From: Escherichia coli
GTDB taxonomy: Bacteria; Pseudomonadota; Gammaproteobacteria; Enterobacterales; Enterobacteriaceae
Length of the DNA stretch: 64,000 bases
Direction: 5' to 3' (one strand)
Assembly: GCF_024502345.1 (NCBI RefSeq)
Contig: NZ_JALDNN010000001.1
Shown here: piece after piece, positions 39,118 to 64,000 of the stretch
Layout: every line of letters starts with the position of its first letter
Numbering within the stretch: position 1 is the first letter of the stretch
Translations under genes and position numbers: made by a program
The notes under the pieces: model-generated
Databases searched by the model: none
The model's input: the letters and a program-made list of their open reading frames with translations, nothing else
Told to the model about the DNA's origin: nothing

Positions 39118-39204
39118 GCCCGGATGGTGGAATCGGTAGACACAAGGGATTTAAAATCCCTCGGCGTTCGCGCTGTGTGGGTTCAAGTCCCACTCCGGGT
39201 ACCA
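39118..39204 (+). tRNA. leuZ: tRNA-Leu (UAA anticodon), class II tRNA with long variable arm; integration site of the downstream island
   Basis: GCCCGGATGGTGGAATCGGTAGACACAAGGGATTTAAAATCCCTCGGCGTTCGCGCTGTGTGGGTTCAAGTCCCACTCCGGGTACCA. Confidence 0.9.
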
Positions 39205-39245
39205 TGGGAAACATCAGAATAATCAAAGCAATAAGCAGTGTCGTT

Positions 39246-39269
39246 AAACCACCTCCGGGTGGTTTTTTT
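39246..39269 (+). terminator. Rho-independent terminator of the glyW-cysT-leuZ operon
   Basis: AAACCACCTCCGGGTGGTTTTTTT hairpin plus T-run. Confidence 0.8.
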
Positions 39270-39445
39270 GTGCCTGAAATTCATGTCCTGTGCATATCCT
39301 GTGCTCACGGGGTGCGATGAGCTGCAATCTCCAGCCTGGCAATGACGAATCGAACGTGTCGCCTCCAGCATAGAGAACCAGGCCGCTTTGCCTGTTTTCC
39401 GGTACGCTTCCGGGAAGGGGGGCCTGCTGAGCAAGCTGTAATGCT

Positions 39446-40186
39446 CTAGCCACCCTGAGTACAAAGTTGCTTAATTCGTGCAATCACCTCATCTCTGTAC
39501 TTCTGGTGTCCGCGCATAGCCCGTGGATGGGCAATTCTGAAACAGATTGCATTACCTGTTTTGAACTCCCATAGCTTCCCCGGAATGACTGAAGAAGTCT
39601 CATAGCCGCCCAGCTCAGTAAGCACCTGTTTTATGATGTAGTCTGTTCTCCGGGCTCCAGATGCAAAGATGATGAAATCAGGCTCAAGGTGTTTAATTTG
39701 TACCGCCAGCAGCTTCAGCGAGGCTAATATGACTTCCTGCACTTCATTTTGAGGGCGATTGAGAGGGGTCAGTCCGTCGTAATCCCACGCCAGTAGATTG
39801 GCATACACGATTGCCTGGGGAAGAATATTAAGCTCCCGGGCCAGCCTGAAATGATATTGCGTGAAGCGGCTACGTGATTTGAGGTTGGTGGTGCCATCAT
39901 TTTGTACCGGAAGATGATTCCTGTAACGATCTACAGCTTCTTCAACCACCTGCCCGATGGTGACGTCAGGTATAAGTCCCAACACCCGTGATATCGTATT
40001 CTTACCATTCAGCGTATTCCAGCCTGCGGTTTCACGTCCAACCAGCATGATTTTTATCGGTGAATGCCAGTATTCTTCAAACGGCACGGGTAAAAAGACG
40101 CCTGAGTATTTATCTTCATTCAGGTTAAATGACTGGGCGTCAACTTCCTGTAATATCCGTTTGTACGCGTCTAATAGCTTTTCCAT
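39446..40186 (-). CDS. Island-encoded hypothetical protein, possibly a divergent uracil-DNA-glycosylase-superfamily protein
   Basis: 246-aa ORF between leuZ and the integrase; weak resemblance to UDG motifs (IMLVGRETAG; C-terminal IAHPRAMRG); assignment tentative. Confidence 0.45.
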   Translation of the reverse strand: MEKLLDAYKRILQEVDAQSFNLNEDKYSGVFLPVPFEEYWHSPIKIMLVGRETAGWNTLNGKNTISRVLGLIPDVTIGQVVEEAVDRYRNHLPVQNDGTTNLKSRSRFTQYHFRLARELNILPQAIVYANLLAWDYDGLTPLNRPQNEVQEVILASLKLLAVQIKHLEPDFIIFASGARRTDYIIKQVLTELGGYETSSVIPGKLWEFKTGNAICFRIAHPRAMRGHQKYRDEVIARIKQLCTQGG

Positions 40187-40236
40187 TCTTCAATCCTGCC
40201 CCGTAATAAAAACACCTTCAGATATATATTATCTCC

Positions 40237-41484
40237 ATGATATCAATCAGATACATGAGGATAAATATGCAAAAATCCTTCCGATTCACCAATTCATCCA
40301 TCAAAGCCCTTCCGGCAAACACAGATACCCGATCTACAGAGCTTGAGGTATCAGATACCGAGGTCATAGGCCTCAAATGTCTCTCAGGTCGAACGGGTAA
40401 CAAACGTTTCCTCCTGCGCTACACATTCCACGGTACCAAAAAAAGTATCAGTATTGGCAGATTCCCTGAAATCGATGTGGGGACAGCCCGTCAGATAGCT
40501 CGCCGTCATAAGGAGGCGATTGCACTTGGAAATGACCCCAAGGCAGAGCGCGATAATTATCGTGCGATGCCAACGCTTAGTGAGTTTTTTCACCTGACCT
40601 ATGTTCCGTTCATCAAGCGCCATAAAAAGTCCTGGGATAAGGATGTTCAGCGTTTCACGCAATACATTGAACCTCGTCTGGGGAAGATACGTTACTGCGA
40701 TCTCAGGGCCAGAGAGATACAACAGGTGCTGTTTGACATGCTGGAGGGGCGTATTCACGGGCAGCAATATGCGCCGTCTACCTGTAACAGAGCCCTTGCT
40801 ATTCTGAAAACGATGGGGCGTTATGCGTTGCGACAGGATGTGCTGGAAAAGAATGAAGCCGATAAGATCCCTTTACTGAAAGAGAATAATCAGCGGACGC
40901 GCTTTTTTGATGCTGATGAGATCAGGCGCATTCTTGACGCTGCTACCCAATATCCCAACAAAGCTGCCGGGGGATTGATAGCCATGTTGTTGTTAACCGG
41001 TACACGCAAATCAGAAATGCTTAATGTCAGGCATGAACATATCGACCGGGCCAATCGTACTCTGTTCATTCCTTATACAAAAAATGGTCGCAGTCGGACG
41101 GTATATCTAAGCGATGCAGCATTATCGATTATTGATGCTATCCCACGAGTTGGCAGTAATCCGTATCTGTTCGCCATTAAGGATAATGGAAAACCGATAT
41201 CGGAACCCCGATGGGCATATGAAAAAATACTGGCACAGTGCGGTATAGACAAGAATGAAGTCTGTTTTCACACCACACGTCATTCTGTTGCCTCTTTACT
41301 GGTTTCGAGTGGTCAATTCAGCCTGTATGACGTTAAAGCACAACTGGCGCATGCCAGTATTCAAAGTACGGAGCGCTACGCGAAATTGACACCAGAGCGT
41401 ATGCGTCAGACCGGGCAGGGCGTAACTGACCTTCTTTTGAACACCGTTACTGCCGGTAACAATGATGATTTTAGCACCCCTTGA
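40237..41484 (+). CDS. int: P4-type tyrosine recombinase / integrase (probable start MQKSFRFTNSSIKALP at about 40267)
   Basis: C-terminal catalytic region with HTTRHSVASLL and LAHASIQSTERYAKL; immediately next to a tRNA gene. Confidence 0.85.
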   Translation: MISIRYMRINMQKSFRFTNSSIKALPANTDTRSTELEVSDTEVIGLKCLSGRTGNKRFLLRYTFHGTKKSISIGRFPEIDVGTARQIARRHKEAIALGNDPKAERDNYRAMPTLSEFFHLTYVPFIKRHKKSWDKDVQRFTQYIEPRLGKIRYCDLRAREIQQVLFDMLEGRIHGQQYAPSTCNRALAILKTMGRYALRQDVLEKNEADKIPLLKENNQRTRFFDADEIRRILDAATQYPNKAAGGLIAMLLLTGTRKSEMLNVRHEHIDRANRTLFIPYTKNGRSRTVYLSDAALSIIDAIPRVGSNPYLFAIKDNGKPISEPRWAYEKILAQCGIDKNEVCFHTTRHSVASLLVSSGQFSLYDVKAQLAHASIQSTERYAKLTPERMRQTGQGVTDLLLNTVTAGNNDDFSTP

Positions 41485-43282: not shown

Positions 43283-43583
43283 CCCGTTATGAACAGGAAG
43301 AAAGCGGGCGGCTTTGTAATCTACAGCATGTGGTGTGCATCACAGCATGGAGATGATGTCTCTTTTTCCTGGCTGTTCGCATAAACAAGTGCAGACACGG
43401 GGGATCTCAGATCCCTCGTGATTTTTGCCCCCTATGGTGCATTCTTCTGTAGCAGGGTGATAACGGTTAATCCATTACCCCAACGACAGTATTACACCGG
43501 TAATAAATGTTCATGAATACAGTTAGTTATGTGGGTTTTGAGGTGGGCTATGTCATCGTTGACGATAACTGAAGGTTTTACAG

Positions 43584-43892: not shown

Positions 43893-44711
43893 CTACTCAA
43901 ATGATATTAATTTAGGTGCGACAGTGTTTTTATGACATGTTAAATTCGCAAGATCAATAATATCATGAAACAATTTTATGTCGTCGTCAGTGAGCTCTAC
44001 GTCTGGATCAGCTAAATCGGCACAGGTAACATTTAACCAGTGTGTTAATGAATCAATCCTGTTTGAAGTAATATATTCAGTGTGACCAATATCCCACTTC
44101 CAGTTGATCACCCGAGCAGGTCTGAATCTCACCTCCCGAACCCCAATTGGCGTTACTGACTCTACGAGAGGGTATATCGTGTTAAGTACTTTATCATGTT
44201 CACTGTAGATATTTAAATGCCCCATTTTTGAACCGTAAGCCATTTTCATTATGTTCTCTGTATAACTTGTTATTGGGGTGGCTCCGGCCATAGAGATTGT
44301 TAAGAGAATATTATCATTTTTAATATAGGGTAATGTATTGTTTATTAATCGAGTCCCTAAAGAATGACCCATTATGATCACATTACGCTTTTCTTTAACG
44401 TATATCTCGTTTATTACGTGTGCTAATTTTTCTCTGTTATTAACTGCTGCTTTCGTTGCATTATACCAGGCCTGACGCGCTTTAAATGGAATGGAGATTG
44501 ATGACAATAAAGGAGATGTTCTCAGGGGGAAGAGAGTATATAACCCCCACTTGTTCGCTATGTCAGAACTTAATATGGATAGTAGATTTGCCGATTCCCA
44601 TTTATAGTATCTGACATCAAGGCCACACCCTGCTTTAATTCGGTTAAACCATGATATATCATTTTCGGTCAGAAACCCTGATACAACAAGAAGAACCGGG
44701 CATTTTTTCAT
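43893..44711 (-). CDS. Alpha/beta-hydrolase-fold protein with GHSLG nucleophile elbow (esterase/lipase-like), function unknown
   Basis: 272-aa ORF; GxSxG motif GHSLG; candidate Asp/His downstream; immediately downstream of the WYL regulator gene. Confidence 0.6.
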   Translation of the reverse strand: MKKCPVLLVVSGFLTENDISWFNRIKAGCGLDVRYYKWESANLLSILSSDIANKWGLYTLFPLRTSPLLSSISIPFKARQAWYNATKAAVNNREKLAHVINEIYVKEKRNVIIMGHSLGTRLINNTLPYIKNDNILLTISMAGATPITSYTENIMKMAYGSKMGHLNIYSEHDKVLNTIYPLVESVTPIGVREVRFRPARVINWKWDIGHTEYITSNRIDSLTHWLNVTCADLADPDVELTDDDIKLFHDIIDLANLTCHKNTVAPKLISFE

Positions 44712-44772
44712 GGTAACTCCATTTTTTAGCTTACAAAAATAGCACTCAATGAAAATTATATTATCCGTGTCA

Positions 44773-45675
44773 TTACGGGGCGTTACTTGGCTGGGTGTAA
44801 CGTTTCAGTGCGGATTGTATATCTTCAGCAAGTTGTTGACGGATTGAGGCCGGTTGTATTACTTCGACATCCGGTATCCAGTATTTCATTAAAGGCATTA
44901 TCTGATCTGTGTGTGTTACACGTGATATCACCAGTAAATCGCCAGACCGGGAAGTATGAATTATTTCCTGTCCTGGCAATAGATGACGGTGGGTAAACCA
45001 CGGAGCAACATGTGCGGAAACTGAAATAAGAACTTCGATAAGGTCTTCGCTATACCAGATACCATCTGTCTTTTCTATTTTTTCATTAATTTCGGGGATT
45101 ATCCTGAAAGAGATATTACTCATGCAAACGTCTTTGACAGATGAGATAACAAAGCTTTTTAATGTACTGTCATGGGCGGCAGCGAGATACCACAATCCGT
45201 TGTCATTAACCAGCCTGTATGGCTCAACAGCCCGAAACTCTTTATCTTTGTAATTAAAATTTACTTTCTTCTGTGACAGGATGGCATCGGATAATACATT
45301 CAGAATTGACATGAATGATCCGCAGTTTTCGTATGGACGTTGTTTTATCAGAAACGGGTTGTTTTTCGTGTTACCTAACAAAATACTCAGTAGTCTGTCA
45401 TCCCAGCGAGGGAACAGCCCTTCAATACCCAGGATGCGCGTGAAATGACGTAAATCAGCATTGCTGCGTTGACCGAGAACACCGTCAGACAGGCGATAGC
45501 GACCATTTTGTCGAATCAGATTAAGATAGGACAGGCGCTGAGTAAGATCACGACGGATAGTTTTTTCGCAAACGTTAAATTCCTCAGATAACTCCCGGAC
45601 GGCTAGTGACTCACCATTGTTCAGGCGAGTTAATATCAATCCGAGTCGATATCCAAGTTTATCGTGCTTACCCAT
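44773..45675 (-). CDS. HTH + WYL-domain transcriptional regulator (BrxR/CapW-like, defence-island regulator family)
   Basis: 300-aa ORF; N-terminal DeoR-like HTH ([22 protein letters not shown]), central WYL-type segment ([10 protein letters not shown]). Confidence 0.65.
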
Positions 45676-46429: not shown

Positions 46430-49093
46430 TCAGACTGGAAGACAGAATGTCGGATATTTACGGGCTATGATATCCATCAGTGACTTCATTCGCGGTGTTA
46501 CAGAACTAAATTTCATTTGGGGTATTTTTGCTCTTACCGCATTTTTTACATCAGTCACCGTTACTGAATAGCCTTCTGACGTCAGCCATTCAGCAACCTC
46601 TTTACAGGAATAACTTTTTTTATCTTTCAGCATCAGCCCCCATTGGCACTGAGTCAGCGCCCGGAGAAATAGTCTGACTAAAATATCATCACTACGTTTG
46701 CTTCCGACTTTTAGTTTCATATCAGAAAACACCGTCCGGCAATAGAGAAAATCACACCAGTCATCCCAGTCAGCCAGGGTCTTCAGTGTATGCGTTTGCC
46801 GCCAGTCGTCGAAAAGGGAGCGCTGCTGCAGAGCCTCTTCCATATTATCCCATGGGCGGGAAAACATCAGTAAATGCCCTTCATTCATGGCGGGCTGTAC
46901 GGGCTGGCGTTTGAAATCGAATTCCAGATTAAGACGGATATCCTGTTCCCGGGATACCAGATCGCTTTCCGACAGCCACATCTCACGCGTTGATATCAAC
47001 GTACTTCGGGATAAAGTCTGACCGGGTAAACGATTAAGGTAAAGATCTACCATATAGTCGTTATAGTCACTGCGTGGAATATCGGCAGGAGGTTTGACGC
47101 CAGCCCTGGCATGAACAACAGGTTTTCCCTGAATAGCTCTATAGGTTAACTGCCCCCGGGTTTTCATGGCGATAAGCTGGCTGACTTCATGCTTACATGT
47201 CAACATTGATGAACCCGGATCAACAATATCGCACAGCGACTGGAAGCGGGAAGACAGTGGACCGCTCATGTTTATCTTGTTAAGTGGGCAATTTGTCAAA
47301 AAGCCATCGGTTGTGACGCTGACAACCGATGAATCAGAAGGCAAAGCATTCATGAGTTCCCCGGCAACGGCGCGGATAAATCCCGTTACATGCGCAGCAA
47401 AGAATGGCTGAGTAACCGATGATGGTGGGAGGGATCTGTTTAATCCACGGGCAGTATCAAAGGCGGTTTTGGCGCGAAGGCCCTGAGCAAGTTTGCCATA
47501 AAGCGAGTTGCCAATTTCTTTCCAGAATTTCTCCTCCAGAGAACCTTTAATATGGCGATTACGGTTCTCACGGACCTGTTGAACAAAGGGAAGAAACACC
47601 GATGTTGATTCGCTGTTATGTGGGGAGGTGTCACAGATCCAGGGGACGATGATCCCATTATGGATCGTCATCTCTGCCCCGAGCGACAGAGCAAGTTCGA
47701 TTTCAGGTGCCGTTGCCCATGATTCGCCACTTAATGGAAAGAATAACCCATATTGATCGGTCCGAACCGGCAGGCTGGGATAGGGAACTGATTCCGGGAA
47801 CCGAAATGTGACAAGCGCAAATCCCATTACATGCCCACAGTAATCGTCCGGATTTTTACTGAGGCGGATGTTCCCGTAATCGGGTGTGAGGATATCTAAT
47901 AGCCCGGTGGTATACGCTCCAGCCAGATCGTAGTCATACCAGTGATCAGACGGTGTAACCCCCATCATAAAACACTCATTGCGTCCGCCGTGGTAACAGT
48001 TGATCGGGAACGTTTCAAACAACTCTCTTGAAGGAACACTGGCGGGGTTTTTAATCGTCCGGAATGCCTGTTTCTCCGTGAGCCAGAGTTCACGGGTTTT
48101 AATGTGTGTCCCAAGGCAGACTTCAGGAGACATATTGTTTTCTTTAAGTGTTTTGGTGAACCGTGAAACTGCCATCGCCCCGATGGTGGCGGGGACACGA
48201 TCAATCATCAGCTCCCGGGCGCAAAAATTGCGAACCTGTAAAGCATAACGAACCGCAATCTCGGCATCCCGCAGAGCATAGGCTTCAAACCCTGCTCTGT
48301 CGCCCAGAAGATATTCACGCATATTGGTTATGGAATAAGGTGCAGGAATGGTGAGTTTGGGAAGACCCAGTAATTCACCACATTCAGCCAGACCCATACC
48401 CCCGGGAGTGATAAGCAGTGTATCGATGAAAGCTACGTTACTGCAACGCGGAGGGGAAGTTCGTTTGTCAAACATTATCTGTTCAGTCTTTACGCGACGT
48501 TCCTGCTGTTCATCAAAATCGATACCGTAACGATTTTTGAAGCTGCTGACAGTACCGCGTATTCCTTTCAGAAGAATTTTGTAGTCTGACCAGAAATTGG
48601 CAAAGGAGGCGATATCCGCACGAATGAAATGCGCATATATATTAATAATACCGGGCCATTTTGTAATCACACCCGTTTCAAGAAGCGGTGTAATCGTTTG
48701 ACAGAGAAATTCCTTAAAAGACAGCCGGGATTTTTTCTGTGAGTCAGGTGGATAGATAATGTTCGATATACCTGTATTATCGGGTAAGATAACATAACTC
48801 TGATATGACAGAATATCATTCTGTCGTGTTTCAGGGTTGAAAACATATTCGGTATCAAAACCGATATGGAGTGTCAGGTCACTTGAAATAACAGATACTT
48901 TTTTTGATGCAGGTGGTATCACAGGATAATCATCAAGCGTTTTAGGTCTTTTACGATTGAGCGCTGGCTCTGAAGTCACGGACTGATACCCCGAGGCGGC
49001 AGCGAGGATGTCCTGCAAATTATTGCTCATAGTTAACTCCGAAAAAATGCCGGGAGCTGTGTCCCGGCATAAAGAATCAGGATTTAATAACAT
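46430..49093 (-). CDS. Family B DNA polymerase of the primer-independent (piPolB) type, pipolin hallmark gene
   Basis: 887-aa ORF; Exo I FDTE; motif B KEIGNSLYGK; motif C-like VTTDGF; KTRG in place of the canonical KxY motif (IAMKTRGQLTY). Confidence 0.8.
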   Translation of the reverse strand: MLLNPDSLCRDTAPGIFSELTMSNNLQDILAAASGYQSVTSEPALNRKRPKTLDDYPVIPPASKKVSVISSDLTLHIGFDTEYVFNPETRQNDILSYQSYVILPDNTGISNIIYPPDSQKKSRLSFKEFLCQTITPLLETGVITKWPGIINIYAHFIRADIASFANFWSDYKILLKGIRGTVSSFKNRYGIDFDEQQERRVKTEQIMFDKRTSPPRCSNVAFIDTLLITPGGMGLAECGELLGLPKLTIPAPYSITNMREYLLGDRAGFEAYALRDAEIAVRYALQVRNFCARELMIDRVPATIGAMAVSRFTKTLKENNMSPEVCLGTHIKTRELWLTEKQAFRTIKNPASVPSRELFETFPINCYHGGRNECFMMGVTPSDHWYDYDLAGAYTTGLLDILTPDYGNIRLSKNPDDYCGHVMGFALVTFRFPESVPYPSLPVRTDQYGLFFPLSGESWATAPEIELALSLGAEMTIHNGIIVPWICDTSPHNSESTSVFLPFVQQVRENRNRHIKGSLEEKFWKEIGNSLYGKLAQGLRAKTAFDTARGLNRSLPPSSVTQPFFAAHVTGFIRAVAGELMNALPSDSSVVSVTTDGFLTNCPLNKINMSGPLSSRFQSLCDIVDPGSSMLTCKHEVSQLIAMKTRGQLTYRAIQGKPVVHARAGVKPPADIPRSDYNDYMVDLYLNRLPGQTLSRSTLISTREMWLSESDLVSREQDIRLNLEFDFKRQPVQPAMNEGHLLMFSRPWDNMEEALQQRSLFDDWRQTHTLKTLADWDDWCDFLYCRTVFSDMKLKVGSKRSDDILVRLFLRALTQCQWGLMLKDKKSYSCKEVAEWLTSEGYSVTVTDVKNAVRAKIPQMKFSSVTPRMKSLMDIIARKYPTFCLPV

Positions 49094-54202: not shown

Positions 54203-54505
54203 CGTTGCCGATTATGGATCATGTCAGCTCCACACACCAGAACGGGTGATATATGGATCATCATTACCCCAACGGCAGTTTTACACCATGGCTAATATGG
54301 ATGCTATCTTACTAAGATAATTGGTTTTTAGCGAGTGACGAGCCCGGTTGTGTCAGTCTGTCTCATGTCGATATTACGGGGATGATGCAAACCTGAATGC
54401 TGCGATATTGGCGTGTCAGGGGAGGCATCTTACGGTATCATTTACCGCAATTTTTAAGATGCAAAGCCCTGCATCGCTAGCTTTTTCTTCAGACCAGGAT
54501 GATTC

Positions 54506-56029
54506 ATGAACGACAAAATCAGTCAGGACACGATCAACAAAGCCCTGTGGGCCGCGTGTGATACGTTCCGTGGCACCATCAGTGCTGATACCTATAAAGA
54601 CTTTATCCTTACCATGCTATTCCTTAAGTACATTTCGGATGTCTGGCAGGATCACTACGACGAATATAAAGTGCAATATGGTGATGAGCCGGAACTGATT
54701 GAAGCGATGATGGCGAACGAGCGCTTCGTGTTGCCGAAAAGCGCCAGTTTCTATGCGTTGTACGAGCGACGTCATGAGCCGGGCAACGGTGAGCGTATCG
54801 ATCAGGCGCTGCATGCGATTGAAGAAGCCAACGGCACCAAACTGAAAGATGCCGGGAAAAGTGTCTTCCAGGATATTTCGTTTAACACTGACCGTCTGGG
54901 CGAAGAAAAACAGAAGAACACCATCCTGCGTCAGTTGCTGGAAGACTTTGCCGGTGAAGATCTTAACCTGAAGCCAAGCCGTGTCGGTACGCTGGACGTT
55001 ATCGGTAATGCTTACGAATATCTGATCAAAAACTTTGCTGCCAGCGGTGGGCAGAAAGCCGGGGAATTCTATACCCCACCGGAAGTTTCGGATCTCATCG
55101 CTGAACTGCTTGATCCTCAACCCGGTGATACAATCTGCGACCCGGCCTGTGGTTCCGGTTCGTTGCTAATGAAGTGCGGGCGTAAAATTGTCTCAGGACA
55201 TGATAGCCGCAACTATGCGTTGTTCGGTCAGGAAGCGATTGGCTCCACGTGGTCGCTGGCGAAAATGAACATGTTCCTGCACGGCGAAGATAACCACAAA
55301 ATCGAGTGGGGCGATACCATTCGTAACCCGAAGTTGTTGGATAAAAACGGCGACCTGATGCTGTTTGATATCGTGACCGCAAACCCACCGTTCAGCCTGG
55401 ATAAGTGGGGCCATGACGAGGCCGAGAATGATAAGTTTGGGCGTTTCCGTCGCGGTGTACCGCCGAAGACTAAAGGGGATTACGCCTTTATCTCGCATAT
55501 GATCGAAACCCTGAAACCGGGAACGGGTCGTATGGGCGTAGTGGTGCCGCACGGTGTGCTGTTCCGTGGCTCCAGCGAAGGCAAAATTCGTCAGAAGCTG
55601 ATTGATGAAAACCTACTCGATGCGGTGATTGGCCTGCCTGAAAAACTGTTCTACGGTACGGGTATTCCTGCTGCAATTCTGATTTTTAAAAAGCAGAAAG
55701 TGGATGACAAGGTGCTGTTTATCGACGCCAGCCGTGAATTTAAGGCAGGTAAAAACCAGAACCAGCTCAGCGCAGAAAACATCGAGAAAATCGTCAAGAC
55801 CTACCGTGATGGCGATAGCGTCGAGAAATATGCCTACCTTGCCAGCCTGAAGGAGATTCAGGACAACGATTACAACCTCAATATTCCGCGCTATGTCGAT
55901 ACCTTTGAAGAAGAAGAAGATATCGATTTACTTGCCGTTCGTGCTGAGCGGGAGGAATTGAAAGCGGAACTGGCGAAATTGGAAACGCAGATGGCGGGTT
56001 ATCTGGAGGAGCTGGGTTATGGTGCCTAA
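54506..56029 (+). CDS. hsdM: Type I restriction-modification system methyltransferase subunit HsdM
   Basis: 507-aa ORF; SAM-binding motif DPACGSGSLL and catalytic NPPF (TANPPFSLDKW). Confidence 0.9.
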   Translation: MNDKISQDTINKALWAACDTFRGTISADTYKDFILTMLFLKYISDVWQDHYDEYKVQYGDEPELIEAMMANERFVLPKSASFYALYERRHEPGNGERIDQALHAIEEANGTKLKDAGKSVFQDISFNTDRLGEEKQKNTILRQLLEDFAGEDLNLKPSRVGTLDVIGNAYEYLIKNFAASGGQKAGEFYTPPEVSDLIAELLDPQPGDTICDPACGSGSLLMKCGRKIVSGHDSRNYALFGQEAIGSTWSLAKMNMFLHGEDNHKIEWGDTIRNPKLLDKNGDLMLFDIVTANPPFSLDKWGHDEAENDKFGRFRRGVPPKTKGDYAFISHMIETLKPGTGRMGVVVPHGVLFRGSSEGKIRQKLIDENLLDAVIGLPEKLFYGTGIPAAILIFKKQKVDDKVLFIDASREFKAGKNQNQLSAENIEKIVKTYRDGDSVEKYAYLASLKEIQDNDYNLNIPRYVDTFEEEEDIDLLAVRAEREELKAELAKLETQMAGYLEELGYGA

Positions 56030-57266
56030 GGGGTGGAAACGAGTACCGATTAAGGATGTGTGCGAGTCTATAATCGATTGCGTAAATAAAACAGCTCCAG
56101 TTGTTGATTATGAAACTCCCTTTAAGATGATTCGTACCACGAATGTACGTAATGGAAGGGTTAATACTGAAGACGTCAGATATGTGACTGAAGACACTTA
56201 CCTGCAATGGGTTCGACGCGGAAAACCGCAAGTAGGTGATATCATCTTTACACGTGAAGCACCTGTAGGAGAAGCAGGTGTCCTGCAAGATGCTGAAGGT
56301 ATTTTCCTCGGGCAAAGAACGATGATGTATCGAGCTGATACCTGCCTTTCAGATAACTATTTCTTGTTCTACTCGTTATCAAGTCCCTTCTGCCAGAAAC
56401 AAATTGAAGATTTTAGCAATGGCGGTACTGTAGCTCATATGAGAGTTCCAGATTGCGGTGAGATATTGATCAATCTACCGCCTTTCCTCGAACAAAAGAA
56501 AATCGCCCAAATCCTGTCAACCTGGGATAAGGCGATTTCGGTGACGGAAAAGCTTCTCACCAACAGCCAGCAGCAGAAAAAAGCCCTGATGCAGCAATTG
56601 CTTACTGGGAAGAAACGCTTGCTGGATGAGAATGGGACAAGGTTTTCTGAAACTTGGAAATTATATGCCTTATCGAAATTATTTCAGAGAGTTACGACTA
56701 AAAACAATGGAAAAAGCAACAATGTTGTAACCATTTCTGGACAACATGGTTTGATTAAACAGGAAGACTTTTTCAAGAAAACAGTCGCATCAGATACCCT
56801 TGATGGTTATTTCTTATTAAAAAAAGGGCAGTTTGCTTACAATAAAAGTTACTCTAATGGTTATCCGATGGGTGCAATAAAAAGATTAAATCGATATCCA
56901 GAGGGAGTAGTAACAACTCTGTATATATGTTTTGAACTTACTACACCCAAAAAATCATGTGGTGACTATTGGGAGCATTATTTTGAGTCAGGGCTTTTGA
57001 ATAACAGTTTGTCTCAAATTGCTCATGAAGGTGGACGGGCTCATGGCTTGCTAAATGTAAAACCTTCGGACTTCTTTTCATTAAAAGTTGCGGTTCCTGG
57101 CTTTGAAGAGCAACAAAAAATCGCATTAGTTCTGTCCGCTGCCGACACCGAAATCTCCACACTGGAGAAAAAACTCGCCTGCCTGAAAGACGAGAAGAAA
57201 GCCTTGATGCAGCAACTGCTGACCGGGAAACGTCGGGTGAAAGTGGATGAGGCGGTTGCCGTATGA
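56019..57266 (+). CDS. hsdS: Type I restriction-modification system specificity subunit HsdS
   Basis: 415-aa ORF with two target-recognition domains separated by conserved repeats (KKALMQQLLTGKKRLL and KKALMQQLLTGKRRVK); overlaps the hsdM end. Confidence 0.85.
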   Translation: MVPKGWKRVPIKDVCESIIDCVNKTAPVVDYETPFKMIRTTNVRNGRVNTEDVRYVTEDTYLQWVRRGKPQVGDIIFTREAPVGEAGVLQDAEGIFLGQRTMMYRADTCLSDNYFLFYSLSSPFCQKQIEDFSNGGTVAHMRVPDCGEILINLPPFLEQKKIAQILSTWDKAISVTEKLLTNSQQQKKALMQQLLTGKKRLLDENGTRFSETWKLYALSKLFQRVTTKNNGKSNNVVTISGQHGLIKQEDFFKKTVASDTLDGYFLLKKGQFAYNKSYSNGYPMGAIKRLNRYPEGVVTTLYICFELTTPKKSCGDYWEHYFESGLLNNSLSQIAHEGGRAHGLLNVKPSDFFSLKVAVPGFEEQQKIALVLSAADTEISTLEKKLACLKDEKKALMQQLLTGKRRVKVDEAVAV

Positions 57267-57946
57267 AACTGACGAAAAGCGGTCCACTGACTGACCGGGA
57301 AATCGACTGGCTGGAAGAAATATTAATGAAGTATGGAATGGATGATTCTGTACTCTGTTTCTCTGAGCTGGATGGATTGCTGACGGCGATTTTATCAGGT
57401 CCAAATATGGTTTCACCCAATATCTGGCTGAGTGCTATTTGGGGAGGAGGCGATTATCATCCGAAATGGTCATCTGAGAGAGAGATGGAGCGTTTTGTCA
57501 GTCTGTGTTTTCAGCATATGAACGATATCGCTGGTTGCCTTTATGACGCCCCTGAACTGTTTGAGCCGATTTTCAATGAGCGTGAGGTAAAGGGGGAAAA
57601 ATATACCATTGTGGAAGAGTGGTGTTTTGGTTATATGAAAGGAAAGTCACTGGATGACTGGTCTGGTCTTCCCGGTGAGTTACGGCCTTCTCTGGAAGTG
57701 ATCGCTCTTCATGGCGTGGAGAAGAATTTTCCTGTACTTGAGAAAATGACCGGAGAGCAGTTTGAGAAAAGTATTTCCCTTATTCAGCCTGCTGCACTGG
57801 CACTTTATCAGTACTGGTTGTCAGTGAGAATGTCAGAGGCATCATCCCGGCCTGTTCCAGTGAAGGGGGCAGAAAACATGCCCGGGCGAAATGACCCGTG
57901 TCCGTGTGGCAGCGGTAAAAAATTTAAGAAGTGCTGTCTGCATTGA
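57263..57946 (+). CDS. YecA-like (UPF0149) protein with C-terminal SEC-C zinc motif, embedded in the Type I R-M operon
   Basis: 227-aa ORF; C-terminal GRNDPCPCGSGKKFKKCCLH; start overlaps the hsdS stop (ATGA). Confidence 0.8.
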   Translation: MKLTKSGPLTDREIDWLEEILMKYGMDDSVLCFSELDGLLTAILSGPNMVSPNIWLSAIWGGGDYHPKWSSEREMERFVSLCFQHMNDIAGCLYDAPELFEPIFNEREVKGEKYTIVEEWCFGYMKGKSLDDWSGLPGELRPSLEVIALHGVEKNFPVLEKMTGEQFEKSISLIQPAALALYQYWLSVRMSEASSRPVPVKGAENMPGRNDPCPCGSGKKFKKCCLH

Positions 57947-57995
57947 TGAATCTTCATGTGACCAGTAGCGAGTAGCGCCAGAAAGAAAAGGATTA

Positions 57996-60900
57996 ATGAT
58001 GAACCAGACGTACACGCCAAAATTCCAGGAAGAATACAGCGCCAAAATTCCGGCACTGACGTTACTGACCAGCCTCGGCTGGACGTTTTTATCTCCGAAA
58101 CAGATTATGGATTACCGGGGCTATAAACAGGATGAGGTGGTGCTGCGTCCGGTTCTGCGTGAAGAGCTGTCGAAGCGTTCCTTTATGGCGGGTGGCAAAA
58201 CCTGCCAGTTATCGGAAAAAGCACTGGATAACCTGATATCACAGGTCTGTTCTCCGGCGCTGAATGAAGGGCTGCTCAAAGCCAATGAACGGATGTATAA
58301 CCATCTGCTCTACGGTATCGCCGTCACGGAGTTTGTCGATGGCAAGAAGGTCAACCCCACCATTGCGCTGATCGACTGGGAACATCCGGAAAATAACCAG
58401 TTCCACTTTACTGAAGAATTTACGGTATTGCGGTCAGGTGGTGTTGAAACCCGGAGGCCAGATATTGTCTGCTTTGTTAATGGTATCCCGCTGGCTGTTA
58501 TTGAAGCGAAAAGCCCGGCTGGTCATGGCAAGAAAGGGCCAACCATTGACGAGGGGATATCCCAGAGTATCCGCAACCAGTTCAACGATGAAATCCCGCA
58601 GCTGTTTGTCTACAGCCAGTTATTACTTTCGATTAACGGTCATGACGGGCGCTACGGTACATGCCATACGCCAATGAAATTCTGGGCGGCATGGCGCGAA
58701 GAAGATATTACCGATGCGCAGATGTATGCTCTGCGCAACCATCCTTTATCGACTGAACAAATTCATGCGTTGTTTGATCATCGTCCATCAGCCGATCTCA
58801 ACTGGTACCAACAGTTAATCGCCGCCGGTGAACTGGCTGTCAGTGGACAGGACAAACTGCTCATCAGCCTGCTTTCGCCGGAACGTCTGCTGGAGATGAC
58901 CCGCTTCTTCACTCTGTTTGATAAAAAGACCGGGAAAATTGTCGCCCGCTATCAGCAGGTGTTCGGTATTAAAAGACTGCTGGAGCGCATCAGTACCCGC
59001 AGACCCGATGGGGGCAGGGAAGGTGGTGTTATCTGGCATACCACCGGCTCTGGCAAATCGTACACCATGGTGTTCCTCAGCAAGGCGCTGATTCTTCATG
59101 ACAGCCTGAAGCGGTGTCGTATCGTGGTGGTGACGGACCGTATCGATCTTGAAGAACAGCTCAGCAGTACCTTTGCATCCGGCGGCGAGTTGGCCGGGAA
59201 AAAAGACAAAGCCAATGCAATGGCGACATCCGGGCAGATGCTGGCGAAACAGATTGGCTCCGGTAAAGAACGCATCATTTTCACCCTAATCCAGAAATTT
59301 AATTCAGCGACAAAACTTCCTGAATGCGTCAATACCAGCCCCGATATCATCGTTCTGGTTGATGAAGGACACCGTAGCCAGGGTGGTGAGAACCATGTGC
59401 GAATGAAACTGGCACTGCCGAACGCCGCCTTTGTGGCATTTACTGGTACGCCATTGCTAAAAGAAGATAAGACCACCAATAAATTCGGACCGATTGTCCA
59501 CGCTTATACCATGCAGCGAGCGGTAGAAGATAAAGCCGTTACACCTTTGCTGTATGAAGAACGTATTCCCGACCTTGAGGTTAACGATCGGGCAATAGAT
59601 GCCTGGTTTGATCGTATTACCGATGGGTTAAGCGAAGCGCAAAAAGCCGACCTGAAGCGTAAATATGCCCGTAAAGGTGAGGTTTATAGTGCAGATGATC
59701 GCATCCGTCTGATCGCACTCGATATCGCCACGCACTTCTCGAAGAATATTGATGAGGGACTGAAAGGCCAGCTTGCCTGCGACAGCAAGATTTCCGCCAT
59801 CAAATATAAAAAGTATCTTGATGAAGCCGGGTTGTTTGAGTCAGCTGTAGTTATCAGCCCGCCGGATACCCGGGAAGGGAATACCGAAGTGGATGAAAGC
59901 AAACTGCCGGAAGTGACGAAATGGTGGAAGGATAATGTCGGCACGCAGGATGAGTCTGTGTATACCCGTAATGTCATCAGTCGTTTCGATACCGATGAGA
60001 AGCTCAAATTGCTGATAGTCGTTGATAAACTGCTCACCGGGTTTGATGAGCCGAAGAATACCGTGCTGTATATCGACAAGCCGCTTAAGTCCCACAACCT
60101 TATCCAGGCGATTGCGCGGGTGAACCGACTGCATCCACTAAAAAAGTTCGGTCTGCTGATTGATTATCGCGGTATTCTGGCTGAGCTGGACACGACTATC
60201 GGCAAATATCAGGACCTCGCCTCCCGAACTCAGGGCGGATACGATATCAAAGATATTGACGGGCTGTACAGCGCCATGAGCTCTGAATACAAGCGCCTGC
60301 CGCATCTGTATAACCAGCTGTGGGCCATATTTGCCGGTGTTAAAAACAAAAATGATACTGAGCAGTTACGTGCGGTACTGGTGCCTAAAATGGAAGAACG
60401 TGACGGAGAGATGGTCGATATCCATCAGAAAACCCGTGATGATTTCTTCGAGGCGTTAACGGCCTTTGCCGGATGCCTGAAAGTGGCACTGCAGTCCGCT
60501 ACCTTCTTCACCGACAAGAGCTTTACGGAACAAGACCGAAATCTCTATAAAGAAACCGTAAAACAGATGTCCAGCCTGCGCCAGTGGGCGATGCAGGTAA
60601 GTGGAGAGCAGGTCAATTATGACGACTACGCTGAGCAGGTGAAAAAACTGCTGGATAAGCATGTCACCGGCGTTGAAGTTCGTGAACCGGATGGCGTGTA
60701 TGAAGTCGGTAAAATGGGCAAGAGCGAAAAGCCCGAAGAGTGGGACAACAATAAAACCCGCAATGAAACCGACATCATTAAAACCCGTGTGACAAAGATG
60801 ATTGAGCAGGAATTGCGTGATGACCCGTATGCTCAGGAGGCATTTTCAAAACTCCTGCGTATGGCTATCGAAGAGGCTGAAAAACTGTTTGACCATCCGC

Positions 60901-61283
60901 TGAAACAGTACCTTTTGTTCCGTGAATTTGAAGAACAGGTTGAAGCCCGTAAGCTCAGCGATATCCCGGATGCACTGGCGGTAAACAAGCATGCTCAGGC
61001 GTATTACGGTGTATTTAAAAAAGAGCTACCTGAGGTTTTTGCGGTAAACGACGTTCAGGTGCAGGATAAGTGGACGAAGCTGGCTTTTGAAGTGGACAAC
61101 ATTATCGTCAAAGCGGTGGCAGAAAACTCCCTGAACCCCCAGGACATTGAGAAAGTCGTTAAGACAAGTCTGCTACCACTGCTGTTTACGGCCTGCCGGG
61201 AAATTGGTGCCGGAATGAATCAGGTTAACCGTATTGTTGAAACCATCATCCAGATACTGCGCGTTGGTTTGATGAAATCATGA
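57996..61283 (+). CDS. hsdR: Type I restriction-modification system endonuclease/helicase subunit HsdR
   Basis: 1095-aa ORF; Walker A TGSGKS, DEAH-type motif VLVDEGHRSQ, helicase C region. Confidence 0.9.
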   Translation: MMNQTYTPKFQEEYSAKIPALTLLTSLGWTFLSPKQIMDYRGYKQDEVVLRPVLREELSKRSFMAGGKTCQLSEKALDNLISQVCSPALNEGLLKANERMYNHLLYGIAVTEFVDGKKVNPTIALIDWEHPENNQFHFTEEFTVLRSGGVETRRPDIVCFVNGIPLAVIEAKSPAGHGKKGPTIDEGISQSIRNQFNDEIPQLFVYSQLLLSINGHDGRYGTCHTPMKFWAAWREEDITDAQMYALRNHPLSTEQIHALFDHRPSADLNWYQQLIAAGELAVSGQDKLLISLLSPERLLEMTRFFTLFDKKTGKIVARYQQVFGIKRLLERISTRRPDGGREGGVIWHTTGSGKSYTMVFLSKALILHDSLKRCRIVVVTDRIDLEEQLSSTFASGGELAGKKDKANAMATSGQMLAKQIGSGKERIIFTLIQKFNSATKLPECVNTSPDIIVLVDEGHRSQGGENHVRMKLALPNAAFVAFTGTPLLKEDKTTNKFGPIVHAYTMQRAVEDKAVTPLLYEERIPDLEVNDRAIDAWFDRITDGLSEAQKADLKRKYARKGEVYSADDRIRLIALDIATHFSKNIDEGLKGQLACDSKISAIKYKKYLDEAGLFESAVVISPPDTREGNTEVDESKLPEVTKWWKDNVGTQDESVYTRNVISRFDTDEKLKLLIVVDKLLTGFDEPKNTVLYIDKPLKSHNLIQAIARVNRLHPLKKFGLLIDYRGILAELDTTIGKYQDLASRTQGGYDIKDIDGLYSAMSSEYKRLPHLYNQLWAIFAGVKNKNDTEQLRAVLVPKMEERDGEMVDIHQKTRDDFFEALTAFAGCLKVALQSATFFTDKSFTEQDRNLYKETVKQMSSLRQWAMQVSGEQVNYDDYAEQVKKLLDKHVTGVEVREPDGVYEVGKMGKSEKPEEWDNNKTRNETDIIKTRVTKMIEQELRDDPYAQEAFSKLLRMAIEEAEKLFDHPLKQYLLFREFEEQVEARKLSDIPDALAVNKHAQAYYGVFKKELPEVFAVNDVQVQDKWTKLAFEVDNIIVKAVAENSLNPQDIEKVVKTSLLPLLFTACREIGAGMNQVNRIVETIIQILRVGLMKS

Positions 61284-62035
61284 GTGAAAAAGAATCGCCA
61301 TCAATGAAAGCGTTACGCATTGTCTATGGTGATGAGGTCATCGTCGTACAGTGTGTTCCGCGTCAGGTCGTAAAGGGCAGGGTGCTCATTAAGGTTTATC
61401 CGGACTGCCGGGTTGTGGCCTCTGTACCGCCTGAAACACCGGAGCACGAGGTATTGTCTGCGCTGAAAAAACGTGGGCGCTGGATATACCAGCAACTGCG
61501 TGATTTCAGGGAGCAACAGATACACATTGTTCCGCGTCAGTATGTCAGCGGAGAAAGCCATTATTATCTCGGTAAGCAATATCAGTTGAAAGTGACAGAA
61601 GACGCTACTGTGCCGCAACGAGTGAAAATGTTGCGTGGACGTCTGGAAGTGACTGTCAGACACAAATCGGCAGAAAAGATTAAAGCCTTGCTGGCTGAAT
61701 GGTATCGGGAACGTGCCAGAGATGTTTTTCAGCGCAGGCTTGATTTACTGATTCCGCAGACCCTTTGGGTCAGTGAGCGTCCTCCGATACGTCTGCGGGC
61801 GATGCAAACGCAATGGGGCAACTGTTCAGCAAAAGGCTGTCTGACCCTGAATCCATGGCTGGTTAAGGCATCTTCAGAATGTATCGATTATGTTTTGCTA
61901 CATGAGTTATGCCATGTGGCTGAGCACAACCACAGCGAGGAGTTTTACCGTCTGATGGGACAGGTTATGCCGGGCTGGGAAAAGGTTAAGAAGCGACTGG
62001 ATGGTATGGCTGGGATGTTGTTGGCAGATATGTAA
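61280..62035 (+). CDS. YgjP-like (DUF45 / M48 family) zinc metallopeptidase, coupled to hsdR
   Basis: 251-aa ORF with HExxH motif (LLHELCHVAEHNH); start overlaps the hsdR stop (ATGA). Confidence 0.75.
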   Translation: MSEKESPSMKALRIVYGDEVIVVQCVPRQVVKGRVLIKVYPDCRVVASVPPETPEHEVLSALKKRGRWIYQQLRDFREQQIHIVPRQYVSGESHYYLGKQYQLKVTEDATVPQRVKMLRGRLEVTVRHKSAEKIKALLAEWYRERARDVFQRRLDLLIPQTLWVSERPPIRLRAMQTQWGNCSAKGCLTLNPWLVKASSECIDYVLLHELCHVAEHNHSEEFYRLMGQVMPGWEKVKKRLDGMAGMLLADM

Positions 62036-63932: not shown

Positions 63933-64000
63933 CAAAGTTGGGGTGTTAATTAATGTGTAATGGCATCATGATTTTTAAAAGGAGGTTGAATTGCGTTCTG

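What the first reader, a model, noticed from the sequence alone, without database searches (positions are those of the whole stretch)
39446..40186. Unassigned 246-aa ORF between the tRNA attachment site and the integrase
This is the first gene inside the element boundary, on the opposite strand to the tRNA. It has faint resemblance to uracil-DNA-glycosylase-superfamily motifs. Pipolins are reported to carry a UDG, so it may be that gene, but the match seen by eye is weak.
Basis: inference. Interest (0 to 1): 0.4.

Follow-up and report, generated by a model that had tools for sequence, protein, structure and literature searches.

The report
Divergent uracil-DNA-glycosylase-like gene of a pipolin
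The 246-aa gene next to the tRNA-Leu attachment site is a real, conserved gene with a uracil-DNA-glycosylase fold; it is the gene pipolin papers already call "UDG", but it fits none of the described UDG families and its substrate and role are untested.

Summary
The ORF is exactly as described: 39446-40186, minus strand, 246 aa. It is the first gene inside the ~131-bp att repeat (39149-39279) that overlaps tRNA-Leu, and it is divergent from the integrase. It is under purifying selection (dN/dS 0.13-0.21).

The uracil-recognising Asn (N130) and the leaving-group His (H220-P221) are conserved. Motif A is G-R-E-T-A-G-W. The four Fe-S cysteines of family 4 are absent. There is no relation to Brig1.

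It matches the "UDG" reported in 95% of E. coli pipolins, which was labelled type 4 by HHpred only. That label is too specific.

The gene occurs in 531 of 5426 E. coli genomes, including decayed pipolins without the polymerase. Relatives elsewhere lie by restriction systems, WYL regulators and a prophage moron slot, and none is found in sequenced phages.

Best reading: an active, cluster-free glycosylase for uracil-type bases, plausibly antiviral. This is a modest novelty: a new sub-family of a known superfamily.

The parts
39446..40186 (-). Protein-coding gene, 246 aa, 28 kDa, pI 8.8: a divergent UDG-superfamily (glycosylase-like) protein
   Evidence: ORF. Same CDS in RefSeq. Homologues. dN/dS 0.13-0.21. 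AF2 pLDDT 90.5. UDG fold. Profile links to UDG. pI and mass.
40019..40039 (-). Codons for G50-R-E-T-A-G-W56, the presumed motif A (water-activating loop) directly after strand beta1 (residues 46-50)
   Evidence: G50 60/60, E52 59/60 and W56 58/60 conserved. The loop follows beta1 in the model. In distant member P0200 (GQEPKAW), Pfam UDG aligns from profile position 3. Coordinates verified. The equivalence to motif A is inferred from position and pattern, not from a superposition.
39779..39805 (-). Codons for Y128-A-N130-L-L-A-W-D-Y136: end of strand beta2 with the conserved Asn
   Evidence: N130 59/60. It aligns with N82 of S. tokodaii UDG and with the 'TN' Asn of a family-4 alignment. That Asn H-bonds uracil N3/O4 in T. 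thermophilus UDGa N80 and E. coli Ung N123 (PMC5387724).
39521..39544 (-). Codons for C215-F-R-I-A-H220-P-R222: strand beta4 and motif B (HP-)
   Evidence: R217 60/60, H220 59/60, P221 59/60. It aligns with the HPAA of family-4 UDGs. The His is the leaving-group stabiliser in UDGa H155 and Ung H187.
40194..40197 (-). Shine-Dalgarno AGGA, 7 nt before the ATG
   Evidence: Read directly from the sequence.
39379..39394 (-). Tentative terminator-like hairpin ~50 nt after the stop codon (weak T tract)
   Evidence: Consensus scan only. Not evidence of function.
39149..39279 (+). att direct-repeat copy (3' half of tRNA-Leu plus the tRNA-operon terminator): the element boundary on the tRNA side
   Evidence: Two ~133-bp copies flank the remnant island in L020. 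They map to the window at 94% identity. No second copy exists in the window, so the element runs past base 64000.
39118..39204 (+). tRNA-Leu (anticodon taa), the integration target
   Evidence: ARAGORN.
40267..41484 (+). Tyrosine integrase, divergently transcribed, separated from the ORF by ~80 bp (ORF-finder start 40237, RefSeq start 40267)
   Evidence: ORF. RefSeq 'site-specific integrase'. It is truncated in remnant islands where the glycosylase-like ORF stays intact.

Best explanation
The ORF encodes a stand-alone DNA glycosylase of the uracil-DNA-glycosylase (UDG) superfamily with no metal cluster. It is the gene called 'UDG' in E. coli pipolins. Shown here: it has the UDG alpha/beta fold, and its C-terminal half is homologous to family-4 UDGs. 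It keeps the Asn that reads the N3/O4 edge of uracil (N130) and the motif-B His that stabilises the leaving base through O2 (H220). It is under purifying selection. Inferred: the enzyme flips a uracil-type pyrimidine (uracil or a 5-substituted uracil/thymine analogue) out of DNA into a pocket lined by N130, H220 and conserved aromatics (F31, W56, F108, W206, F208). The invariant Glu52 in G-[R/Q]-E-[T/P]-x-G-W sits where Asp64 of family-1 GQDPY sits and activates the water that cuts the N-glycosidic bond, leaving an abasic site. Most likely role (about 0.4, inferred from context only): surveillance of foreign DNA, as for the antiviral UDG-fold glycosylases Brig1, Brig2 and Brig3, rather than housekeeping uracil repair. 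Supporting points are that E. coli already has Ung and Mug, the gene is accessory (about 10% of genomes), it rides on a defence island, and its relatives sit beside restriction systems, WYL regulators and in a prophage moron slot.
Confidence: 0.55

Rival explanations
1. It is an ordinary uracil-repair enzyme, a 'type-4 UDG' as the pipolin literature labels it. It removes uracil from pipolin or host DNA, perhaps feeding abasic sites to the abasic-site-tolerant piPolB during element replication.
For: HHpred assignment to S. tokodaii family-4 UDG in PMC7385651. Our profile hits the same protein. The uracil-reading Asn and His are retained. piPolB bypasses abasic sites (PMC5695915). The gene lies in the conserved integrase-proximal end of E. 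coli pipolins and is present in 95% of them.
Against: The defining family-4 features are missing. There are no four Fe-S cysteines: nine members have a single Cys, and W134 and S156 occupy two of the Cys positions. Motif A is GRETAGW, not GE[AG]PG. There is a ~45-residue insertion between motif A and beta2. The gene persists intact, under purifying selection, in islands that have lost piPolB: 531 versus 295 genomes, for example TUM1886. In eleven non-E. coli neighbourhoods no Pfam-recognisable DNA polymerase was called and the genes differ from those of the window, although piPolB itself has no Pfam hit, so it was not specifically excluded there. E. coli already has Ung and Mug (established knowledge).
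Confidence: 0.25
2. It is a catalytically inert UDG-fold protein that binds DNA or a partner, for example a polymerase accessory factor like poxvirus D4 or a lesion-marking protein like UdgX.
Against: Near-invariance of exactly the catalytic-type residues (E52, N130, H220) over 467 clusters argues for chemistry rather than scaffolding. It is widespread without any evident polymerase. It lacks UdgX's KRRIH loop and Fe-S cysteines.
Confidence: 0.1
3. It is an accessory factor of site-specific recombination (directionality or att-site factor), given its fixed place between att and the integrase.
For: Invariant adjacency to att and the integrase in E. coli. Divergent transcription from an ~80-bp shared intergenic region.
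Against: The fold and conserved residues are those of a glycosylase. The ORF stays intact where the integrase is truncated. Most relatives in other genera have no integrase nearby.
Confidence: 0.05
4. The UDG resemblance is spurious: a generic three-layer alpha/beta protein of another family, such as MoaB/MogA/CinA-like.
Against: Two sequence-only tests point to UDG and nothing else. The sole PDB hit is a UDG, and PF03167 is the only Pfam family hit by more than one member, 31 of 60. Both align the functional Asn and His-Pro. hhalign against family 4 gives E=2.6e-5.
Confidence: 0.03

Closest known systems
Family-4 uracil-DNA glycosylases (UDGa; S. tokodaii 4ZBX/4ZBY, T. maritima 1L9G, T. thermophilus 1UI0)
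   Different: There is no [4Fe-4S] cluster: all four Cys ligand positions are lost, with W134 and S156 at two of them. Motif A is G-R-E-T-A-G-W instead of GE[AG]PG. There is no PF[VI]G block. About 45 extra residues lie between motif A and beta2. The motif-3 Asn (NNR) is not conserved. The N-terminal half cannot be aligned.
Family-1 UDG (Ung), motif A GQDPY
   Same: An acidic residue at the third position of motif A after a polar residue: the family has G-[R/Q/K]-E-[T/P], and some members read GQEP. Asn and His play the same roles as Ung N123 and H187. There is no Fe-S cluster.
Brig1, Brig2 and Brig3 antiviral DNA glycosylases (PMC11078745; bioRxiv 10.1101/2025.10.29.685425; 10.64898/2026.02.25.707755)
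   Different: There is no sequence relation to Brig1: hhalign 0.1%, BLASTP not significant. Brig1 has GLNPG and a Glu (E147) where this family keeps Asn, which suggests a uracil/thymine-type target rather than a cytosine-type one. No antiviral phenotype is known for this family.
The pipolin 'UDG' (Roary group_1 of Flament-Simon et al. 2020; also cited in Redrejo-Rodriguez 2017 and Mateo-Caceres 2024)
   Same: Same element type (piPolB present at 46430-49093). Same position at the tRNA-Leu att end beside the integrase. Same best remote hit. This is that gene.
   Different: The published label 'type-4 UDG' is not borne out by the family-4 membership tests done here. The gene also outlives the polymerase in decayed islands.

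Membership tests
UDG superfamily (Pfam PF03167 clan; families 1-6, UdgX) | Alpha/beta/alpha fold with a central parallel sheet, order beta1 - motif A - helices - beta2 - helix - beta3 - beta4 - motif B | tested here: met
   [not shown]
UDG superfamily (Pfam PF03167 clan; families 1-6, UdgX) | Motif B with His-Pro after the last core strand | tested here: met
   H220-P221 are 59/60 conserved and align to HPAA.
UDG superfamily (Pfam PF03167 clan; families 1-6, UdgX) | Motif A loop after beta1 (G-x-[D/N/E/G]-P-[G/Y]) | tested here: inconclusive
   G50-R-E52-T-A-G-W56 lies in the right place and is conserved. Some members read GQEP. In P0200 the Pfam model aligns from profile position 3. No direct sequence or structural alignment of this loop to a known UDG was obtained.
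UDG superfamily (Pfam PF03167 clan; families 1-6, UdgX) | Score above Pfam's curated threshold for PF03167 | tested here: not met
   The window protein has no hit at E<=10. The best relative scores 23.9 bits against a 24.3 cut-off. 31 of 60 members match only below threshold.
UDG superfamily (Pfam PF03167 clan; families 1-6, UdgX) | Base-excision (N-glycosidic bond hydrolysis) activity | not testable with these tools
   No biochemical data in the held literature.
Family-4 UDG (UDGa) | [4Fe-4S] cluster bound by four conserved cysteines | tested here: not met
   The only widely conserved Cys is C215 (49/60). Nine members have one Cys in total. W134 and S156 align to two ligand positions. The cluster as a family-4, family-5 and UdgX feature is from PMC4787834.
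Family-4 UDG (UDGa) | Motif A GE[AG]PG and the downstream PF[VI]G aromatic | tested here: not met
   GRETAGW here, against invariant G-E-x-P-G...P-F-x-G in 23 bona fide members.
Family-4 UDG (UDGa) | Uracil-reading Asn at the end of beta2 and catalytic His in motif B | tested here: met
   N130 and H220 align to these positions. Roles from PMC5387724.
Family-4 UDG (UDGa) | Full-length profile similarity | tested here: inconclusive
   hhalign 74.9%, E=2.6e-5, but only over the C-terminal 118 columns.
Brig1 family | Sequence homology to Brig1 (GLNPG, Y121, N145-x-E147) | tested here: not met
   hhalign probability 0.1% and no significant BLASTP alignment, using the Brig1 sequence from the paper's supplement.
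Brig2 and Brig3 families | Sequence or structural homology to Brig2 or Brig3 | not testable with these tools
   Brig2 tables are truncated in the stored supplement. No Brig3 supplement is held. No Brig entry appears among the listed PDB hits.
Pipolin 'UDG' gene (group_1, PMC7385651) | Located at the tRNA-Leu att end next to the XerC-like/IntSXT integrase of a piPolB element, with remote best hit S. tokodaii UDG | tested here: met
   Position. piPolB in the window. Same best hit.
Known anti-phage defence systems (PADLOC-DB v2) | Match to a curated defence-protein model | tested here: not met
   0 families at E<=10.

The most novel reading that the evidence does not exclude
This family is a fourth, unrecognised lineage of antiviral UDG-fold glycosylases (Brig-like), carried by about 10% of E. 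coli at the tRNA-Leu hotspot. It would excise uracil-type non-canonical pyrimidines (dU, 5hmU or hypermodified thymidines) from invading phage or plasmid DNA. In other lineages it would be controlled by an acidic ~110-aa partner, which is sometimes fused, or by WYL regulators.
Probability: 0.35. Interest if true: 0.6.

Novelty: new variant of a known kind. Interest (0 to 1): 0.4.

Why it matters
Three pipolin papers label this gene a type-4 UDG on the strength of one HHpred hit. That label implies an Fe-S uracil-repair enzyme, and the sequence does not support it. The protein belongs to a large family (467 clusters at 50% identity) that is cluster-free and unnamed, sits just under Pfam's threshold, and so goes out as 'hypothetical protein' in hundreds of E. 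coli genomes. Three other divergent UDG-fold families have recently turned out to be antiviral enzymes that attack modified phage bases. This family lives in the same kind of neighbourhood, so it is a cheap and well-defined candidate to test. A positive result would add a glycosylase defence that is common in E. coli itself. A negative result with robust uracil activity would establish a new cluster-free UDG family linked to a self-replicating element.

Tried and rejected
1. Single-sequence searches of the window protein against Pfam, NCBIfam, PADLOC and PDB sequences at E<=10 found nothing. The close-homologue profile A1 against the PDB also found nothing.

2. An N-terminal-half profile (A3), built to align motif A to known UDGs, gave only chance hits.

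3. Brig1 homology was tested with the published sequence and rejected.

4. Brig2 and Brig3 could not be compared: the stored tables are truncated or absent.

5. I considered whether the Stutzerimonas integrative element is a relative of the window's element with a shifted att. Only the glycosylase-like gene is shared, so this was rejected.

6. I looked in the window for the 109-aa partner, the small tubulin-like proteins and the WYL regulators found near distant homologues. There was no tblastn match.

8. A promoter scan of the 80-bp divergent intergenic region found no consensus sigma-70 promoter for either gene.

9. A search for a second att copy in the window found none, so the far end of the element lies beyond base 64000.

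10. tblastn against 50,697 phage records found no match.

Full report
OBSERVATION. The window carries uvrY-uvrC-pgsA, then tRNA-Gly, tRNA-Cys and tRNA-Leu on the + strand (tRNA-Leu at 39118-39204), then a 246-aa ATG-initiated ORF on the minus strand at 39446-40186, then a tyrosine integrase on the + strand. RefSeq annotates exactly this 741-nt CDS as 'hypothetical protein' and its neighbour as 'site-specific integrase'. An AGGA Shine-Dalgarno lies 7 nt before the ATG.

The element boundary was defined in a decayed island that holds both ends (E. coli TUM1886, L020). There a ~133-bp direct repeat, made of the 3' half of tRNA-Leu plus the tRNA-operon terminator, flanks the insert. It maps to window 39149-39279, and there is no second copy in the window, so the element runs past base 64000.

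It is a real gene. It has 186 close homologues at 50-100% identity in Enterobacterales, Marinobacter, Pseudoalteromonas, Stutzerimonas, Proteus and others, and 467 representative clusters in an exhaustive profile search. dN/dS is 0.13-0.21 in every informative comparison.

Because that margin is small, I looked for evidence from sequence alone:
- A 60-member alignment reaching ~23% identity (A2) has one PDB sequence hit, the S. tokodaii family-4 UDG (4ZBX, E=3.2e-5). The alignment places the family's Asn on N82 and its HPR on HPAA.
- PF03167 (UDG) is the only Pfam family hit by more than one member, 31 of 60, with a best E-value of 6.7e-6.
- One member reaches 23.9 bits against the 24.3-bit cut-off over profile positions 3-128 of 141.
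- I fetched 23 bona fide family-4 UDGs and ran a profile-profile comparison. It gave 74.9% probability, E=2.6e-5, over 118 columns of the C-terminal half.

ANATOMY AND LIKELY CHEMISTRY. Across the 60 sequences the conserved residues are G50 (60/60), E52 (59), W56 (58), F31 (56), F108 (57), N130 (59), S156 (60), Q163 (52), P169 (60), F174 (59), G177 (56), W206 (58), F208 (60), R217 (60), H220 (59) and P221 (59).

By the alignments, N130 is the Asn at the end of beta2. In T. thermophilus UDGa (N80) and E. coli Ung (N123) that Asn makes two hydrogen bonds to uracil N3 and O4. H220 is the motif-B His (UDGa H155, Ung H187) that stabilises the leaving base through O2 (PMC5387724).

The block G50-[R/Q/K]-E52-[T/P]-x-G-W56 follows strand beta1, which is where motif A lies. 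Some members read GQEP, close to family-1 GQDPY, whose Asp is the water-activating base. That E52 plays this role is an inference: the N-terminal half could not be aligned to any known UDG.

The family differs from family 4 in several ways:
- There is no four-cysteine pattern. Nine members have a single Cys, and W134 and S156 sit at two ligand positions. No Fe-S cluster is therefore expected.
- It lacks GE[AG]PG and PF[VI]G.
- About 45 extra residues lie between motif A and beta2.

Retention of Asn, rather than the Glu used by the cytosine-directed Brig1, suggests a uracil- or thymine-type base as substrate. This too is an inference.

RELATION TO THE LITERATURE. The 887-aa ORF at 46430-49093 is annotated in two RefSeq genomes as a B-family or DNA-directed DNA polymerase. 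The window's gene order matches published E. coli pipolins: integrase, orphan genes, DUF2787, DUF726, a WYL/YafY regulator, piPolB, a second integrase and a type I R-M system.

Flament-Simon et al. 2020 list a 'Uracil-DNA glycosylase' in 95% of E. coli pipolins. It was assigned by its best HHpred hit, Q96YD0, described as 'type-4', and placed at the right end beside a XerC-like integrase and the att that overlaps tRNA-Leu. That is this ORF. Redrejo-Rodriguez et al. 2017 and Mateo-Caceres et al. 2024 mention it in passing, the latter noting that glycosylases might serve in defence. No paper in the held library tests it.

DISTRIBUTION AND CONTEXT. The ORF is present in 531 of 5426 complete E. 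coli genomes, always chromosomal. The piPolB DNA is present in only 295. The sampled carriers without a polymerase are decayed pipolins. TUM1886 keeps tRNA-Leu, the intact ORF, a truncated integrase and an AAA-ATPase/HNH pair between two att copies, followed by yecA. Other genomes show IS-mediated deletions or a truncated integrase. The allele in the remnant is still under purifying selection (dN/dS 0.135).

Outside E. coli the neighbourhoods vary:
- Mrr plus a type I R-M system in Proteus.
- Mrr_cat plus a PDDEXK nuclease in Pectobacterium.
- DUF6361, a helicase and NOV_C in Marinobacter.
- An integrase-bearing element in Stutzerimonas.
- A WYL/WCX regulator directly upstream, in an island with an integrase and a type III R-M system, and a second WYL/WCX pairing.
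- The slot between baseplate-V and tail-completion S/R genes of a P2-like prophage, on the opposite strand.
- Nmad2, Nmad3, DUF2779 and RadC genes.
- An IS- and toxin-rich region of a conjugative plasmid.
- A core-like cytochrome-oxidase neighbourhood, and a spot beside a plasmid replication gene.

No homologue exists in 50,697 phage records, and 15 plasmids carry one. None of these neighbourhoods has a Pfam-recognisable DNA polymerase. PiPolB itself has no Pfam hit, however, so it was not specifically excluded there.

HOW IT MOST LIKELY WORKS. Shown: the UDG fold, homology of the C-terminal half to family 4, conservation of the base-reading Asn and leaving-group His, absence of Fe-S ligands, purifying selection, accessory distribution, and independence from piPolB within E. 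coli.

Inferred: the protein is an active monofunctional glycosylase that flips a uracil-type base into a pocket formed by N130, H220 and conserved aromatics, with E52 activating water, and leaves an abasic site.

For the biological role I favour surveillance of foreign DNA (about 0.4). E. coli already has Ung and Mug, the gene rides on a defence island, and most sampled neighbourhoods are defence- or mobile-element-type. In addition, Brig1, Brig2 and Brig3 show that divergent UDG folds have been recruited repeatedly to attack modified phage bases while keeping residual uracil activity.

The main rival (about 0.25) is uracil repair for the element, possibly coupled to the abasic-site bypass ability of piPolB. 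Its fixed place at the conserved, integrase-proximal end of pipolins fits that better. An inert UDG-fold DNA-binding or polymerase-accessory protein, a recombination accessory factor, and a spurious fold assignment are each less likely, for the reasons given under the rivals.

MEMBERSHIP. Superfamily: the fold and motif B are met, motif A is plausible but not aligned, and the Pfam threshold is not met. Family 4: the Asn and His are met; the Fe-S cysteines and GE[AG]PG are not met. Brig1: not met. Brig2 and Brig3: not testable here. Pipolin 'UDG': met.

NOVELTY AND VERDICT. That pipolins carry a UDG-like gene here is already published. What this analysis adds is that the gene is not a family-4 enzyme but a member of a large, unnamed, cluster-free branch of the superfamily. 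It has a family-1-like acidic motif A on a family-4-like C-terminal scaffold, it outlives the polymerase in decayed islands, and its relatives keep defence-type company. A specialist would find this sensible rather than surprising. It becomes interesting only if the antiviral reading holds. Interest is 0.4.

Noticed in passing
[not shown]
   Followed up: partly
L022 5109-5666 (-); L025 6448-7047 (+): Small (185 and 199 aa) FtsZ/tubulin-like GTPase-domain proteins with a GGxGTG-type signature lie next to two distant, unrelated copies of the glycosylase-like gene. They are homologous to each other (E=1e-16). Their function is unknown.
   Followed up: partly
L022 5838-6881; L023 1093-2076: Homologous WYL/WCX regulators (E=3e-31) sit directly beside two distant copies of the gene. 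This arrangement is typical of damage-sensing control of defence genes. The window's own YafY/WYL-type regulator (44773-45675) is 4.6 kb away and is not detectably similar to them.
   Followed up: partly
L024 7001-7729: A 34%-identical homologue occupies the opposite-strand slot between the baseplate gpV-like gene and the gpS/gpR tail-completion genes of a P2-like prophage (a moron position). Yet tblastn finds no homologue in 50,697 deposited phage genomes. PHROGs holds a matching family of unknown function (phrog_29550, E=1.6e-177).
   Followed up: partly
L020 13671-18100 (E. coli TUM1886): A ~4-kb pipolin remnant lies between two att copies. It holds the intact glycosylase-like ORF, a truncated integrase and an AAA-ATPase plus HNH-endonuclease pair (possibly a Septu-like defence system), followed directly by yecA. 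It shows how the tRNA-Leu hotspot decays while keeping these genes.
   Followed up: partly
window 43473-43498 and 54262-54287: A 26-nt direct repeat (CATTACCCCAACGACAGTATTACACC, 92% identical) lies in two intergenic regions, one after the DUF2787 gene and one before hsdM. Together they bracket the DUF726/WYL, piPolB and second-integrase block. Their significance is unknown.
   Followed up: no
window 54506-62035: The type I R-M operon (hsdM 54506-56029, hsdS 56019-57266, hsdR 57996-61283) has a YecA-like UPF0149/SEC-C gene inserted between hsdS and hsdR (57263-57946). An overlapping YgjP/M48-like metallopeptidase gene (61280-62035) follows it. The same arrangement recurs in other pipolins.
   Followed up: no
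window 46430-49093 (-): The 887-aa ORF taken to be the primer-independent PolB has no Pfam hit at E<=0.001. Most RefSeq genomes call it 'hypothetical protein', and only two of those seen call it a DNA polymerase. RefSeq usually starts it 21 codons later (866 aa).
   Followed up: partly
window 39246-39265: The tRNA-operon terminator hairpin lies inside the att repeat. The element therefore carries its own copy, which restores both the tRNA 3' end and its terminator on integration.
   Followed up: yes
window 43893-45675 (-): A DUF726 alpha/beta-hydrolase-like gene (43893-44711) is paired with the YafY/WYL-type HTH regulator (44773-45675). The pair is conserved in all pipolin copies inspected. 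It may be a regulated effector pair of unknown function.
   Followed up: no
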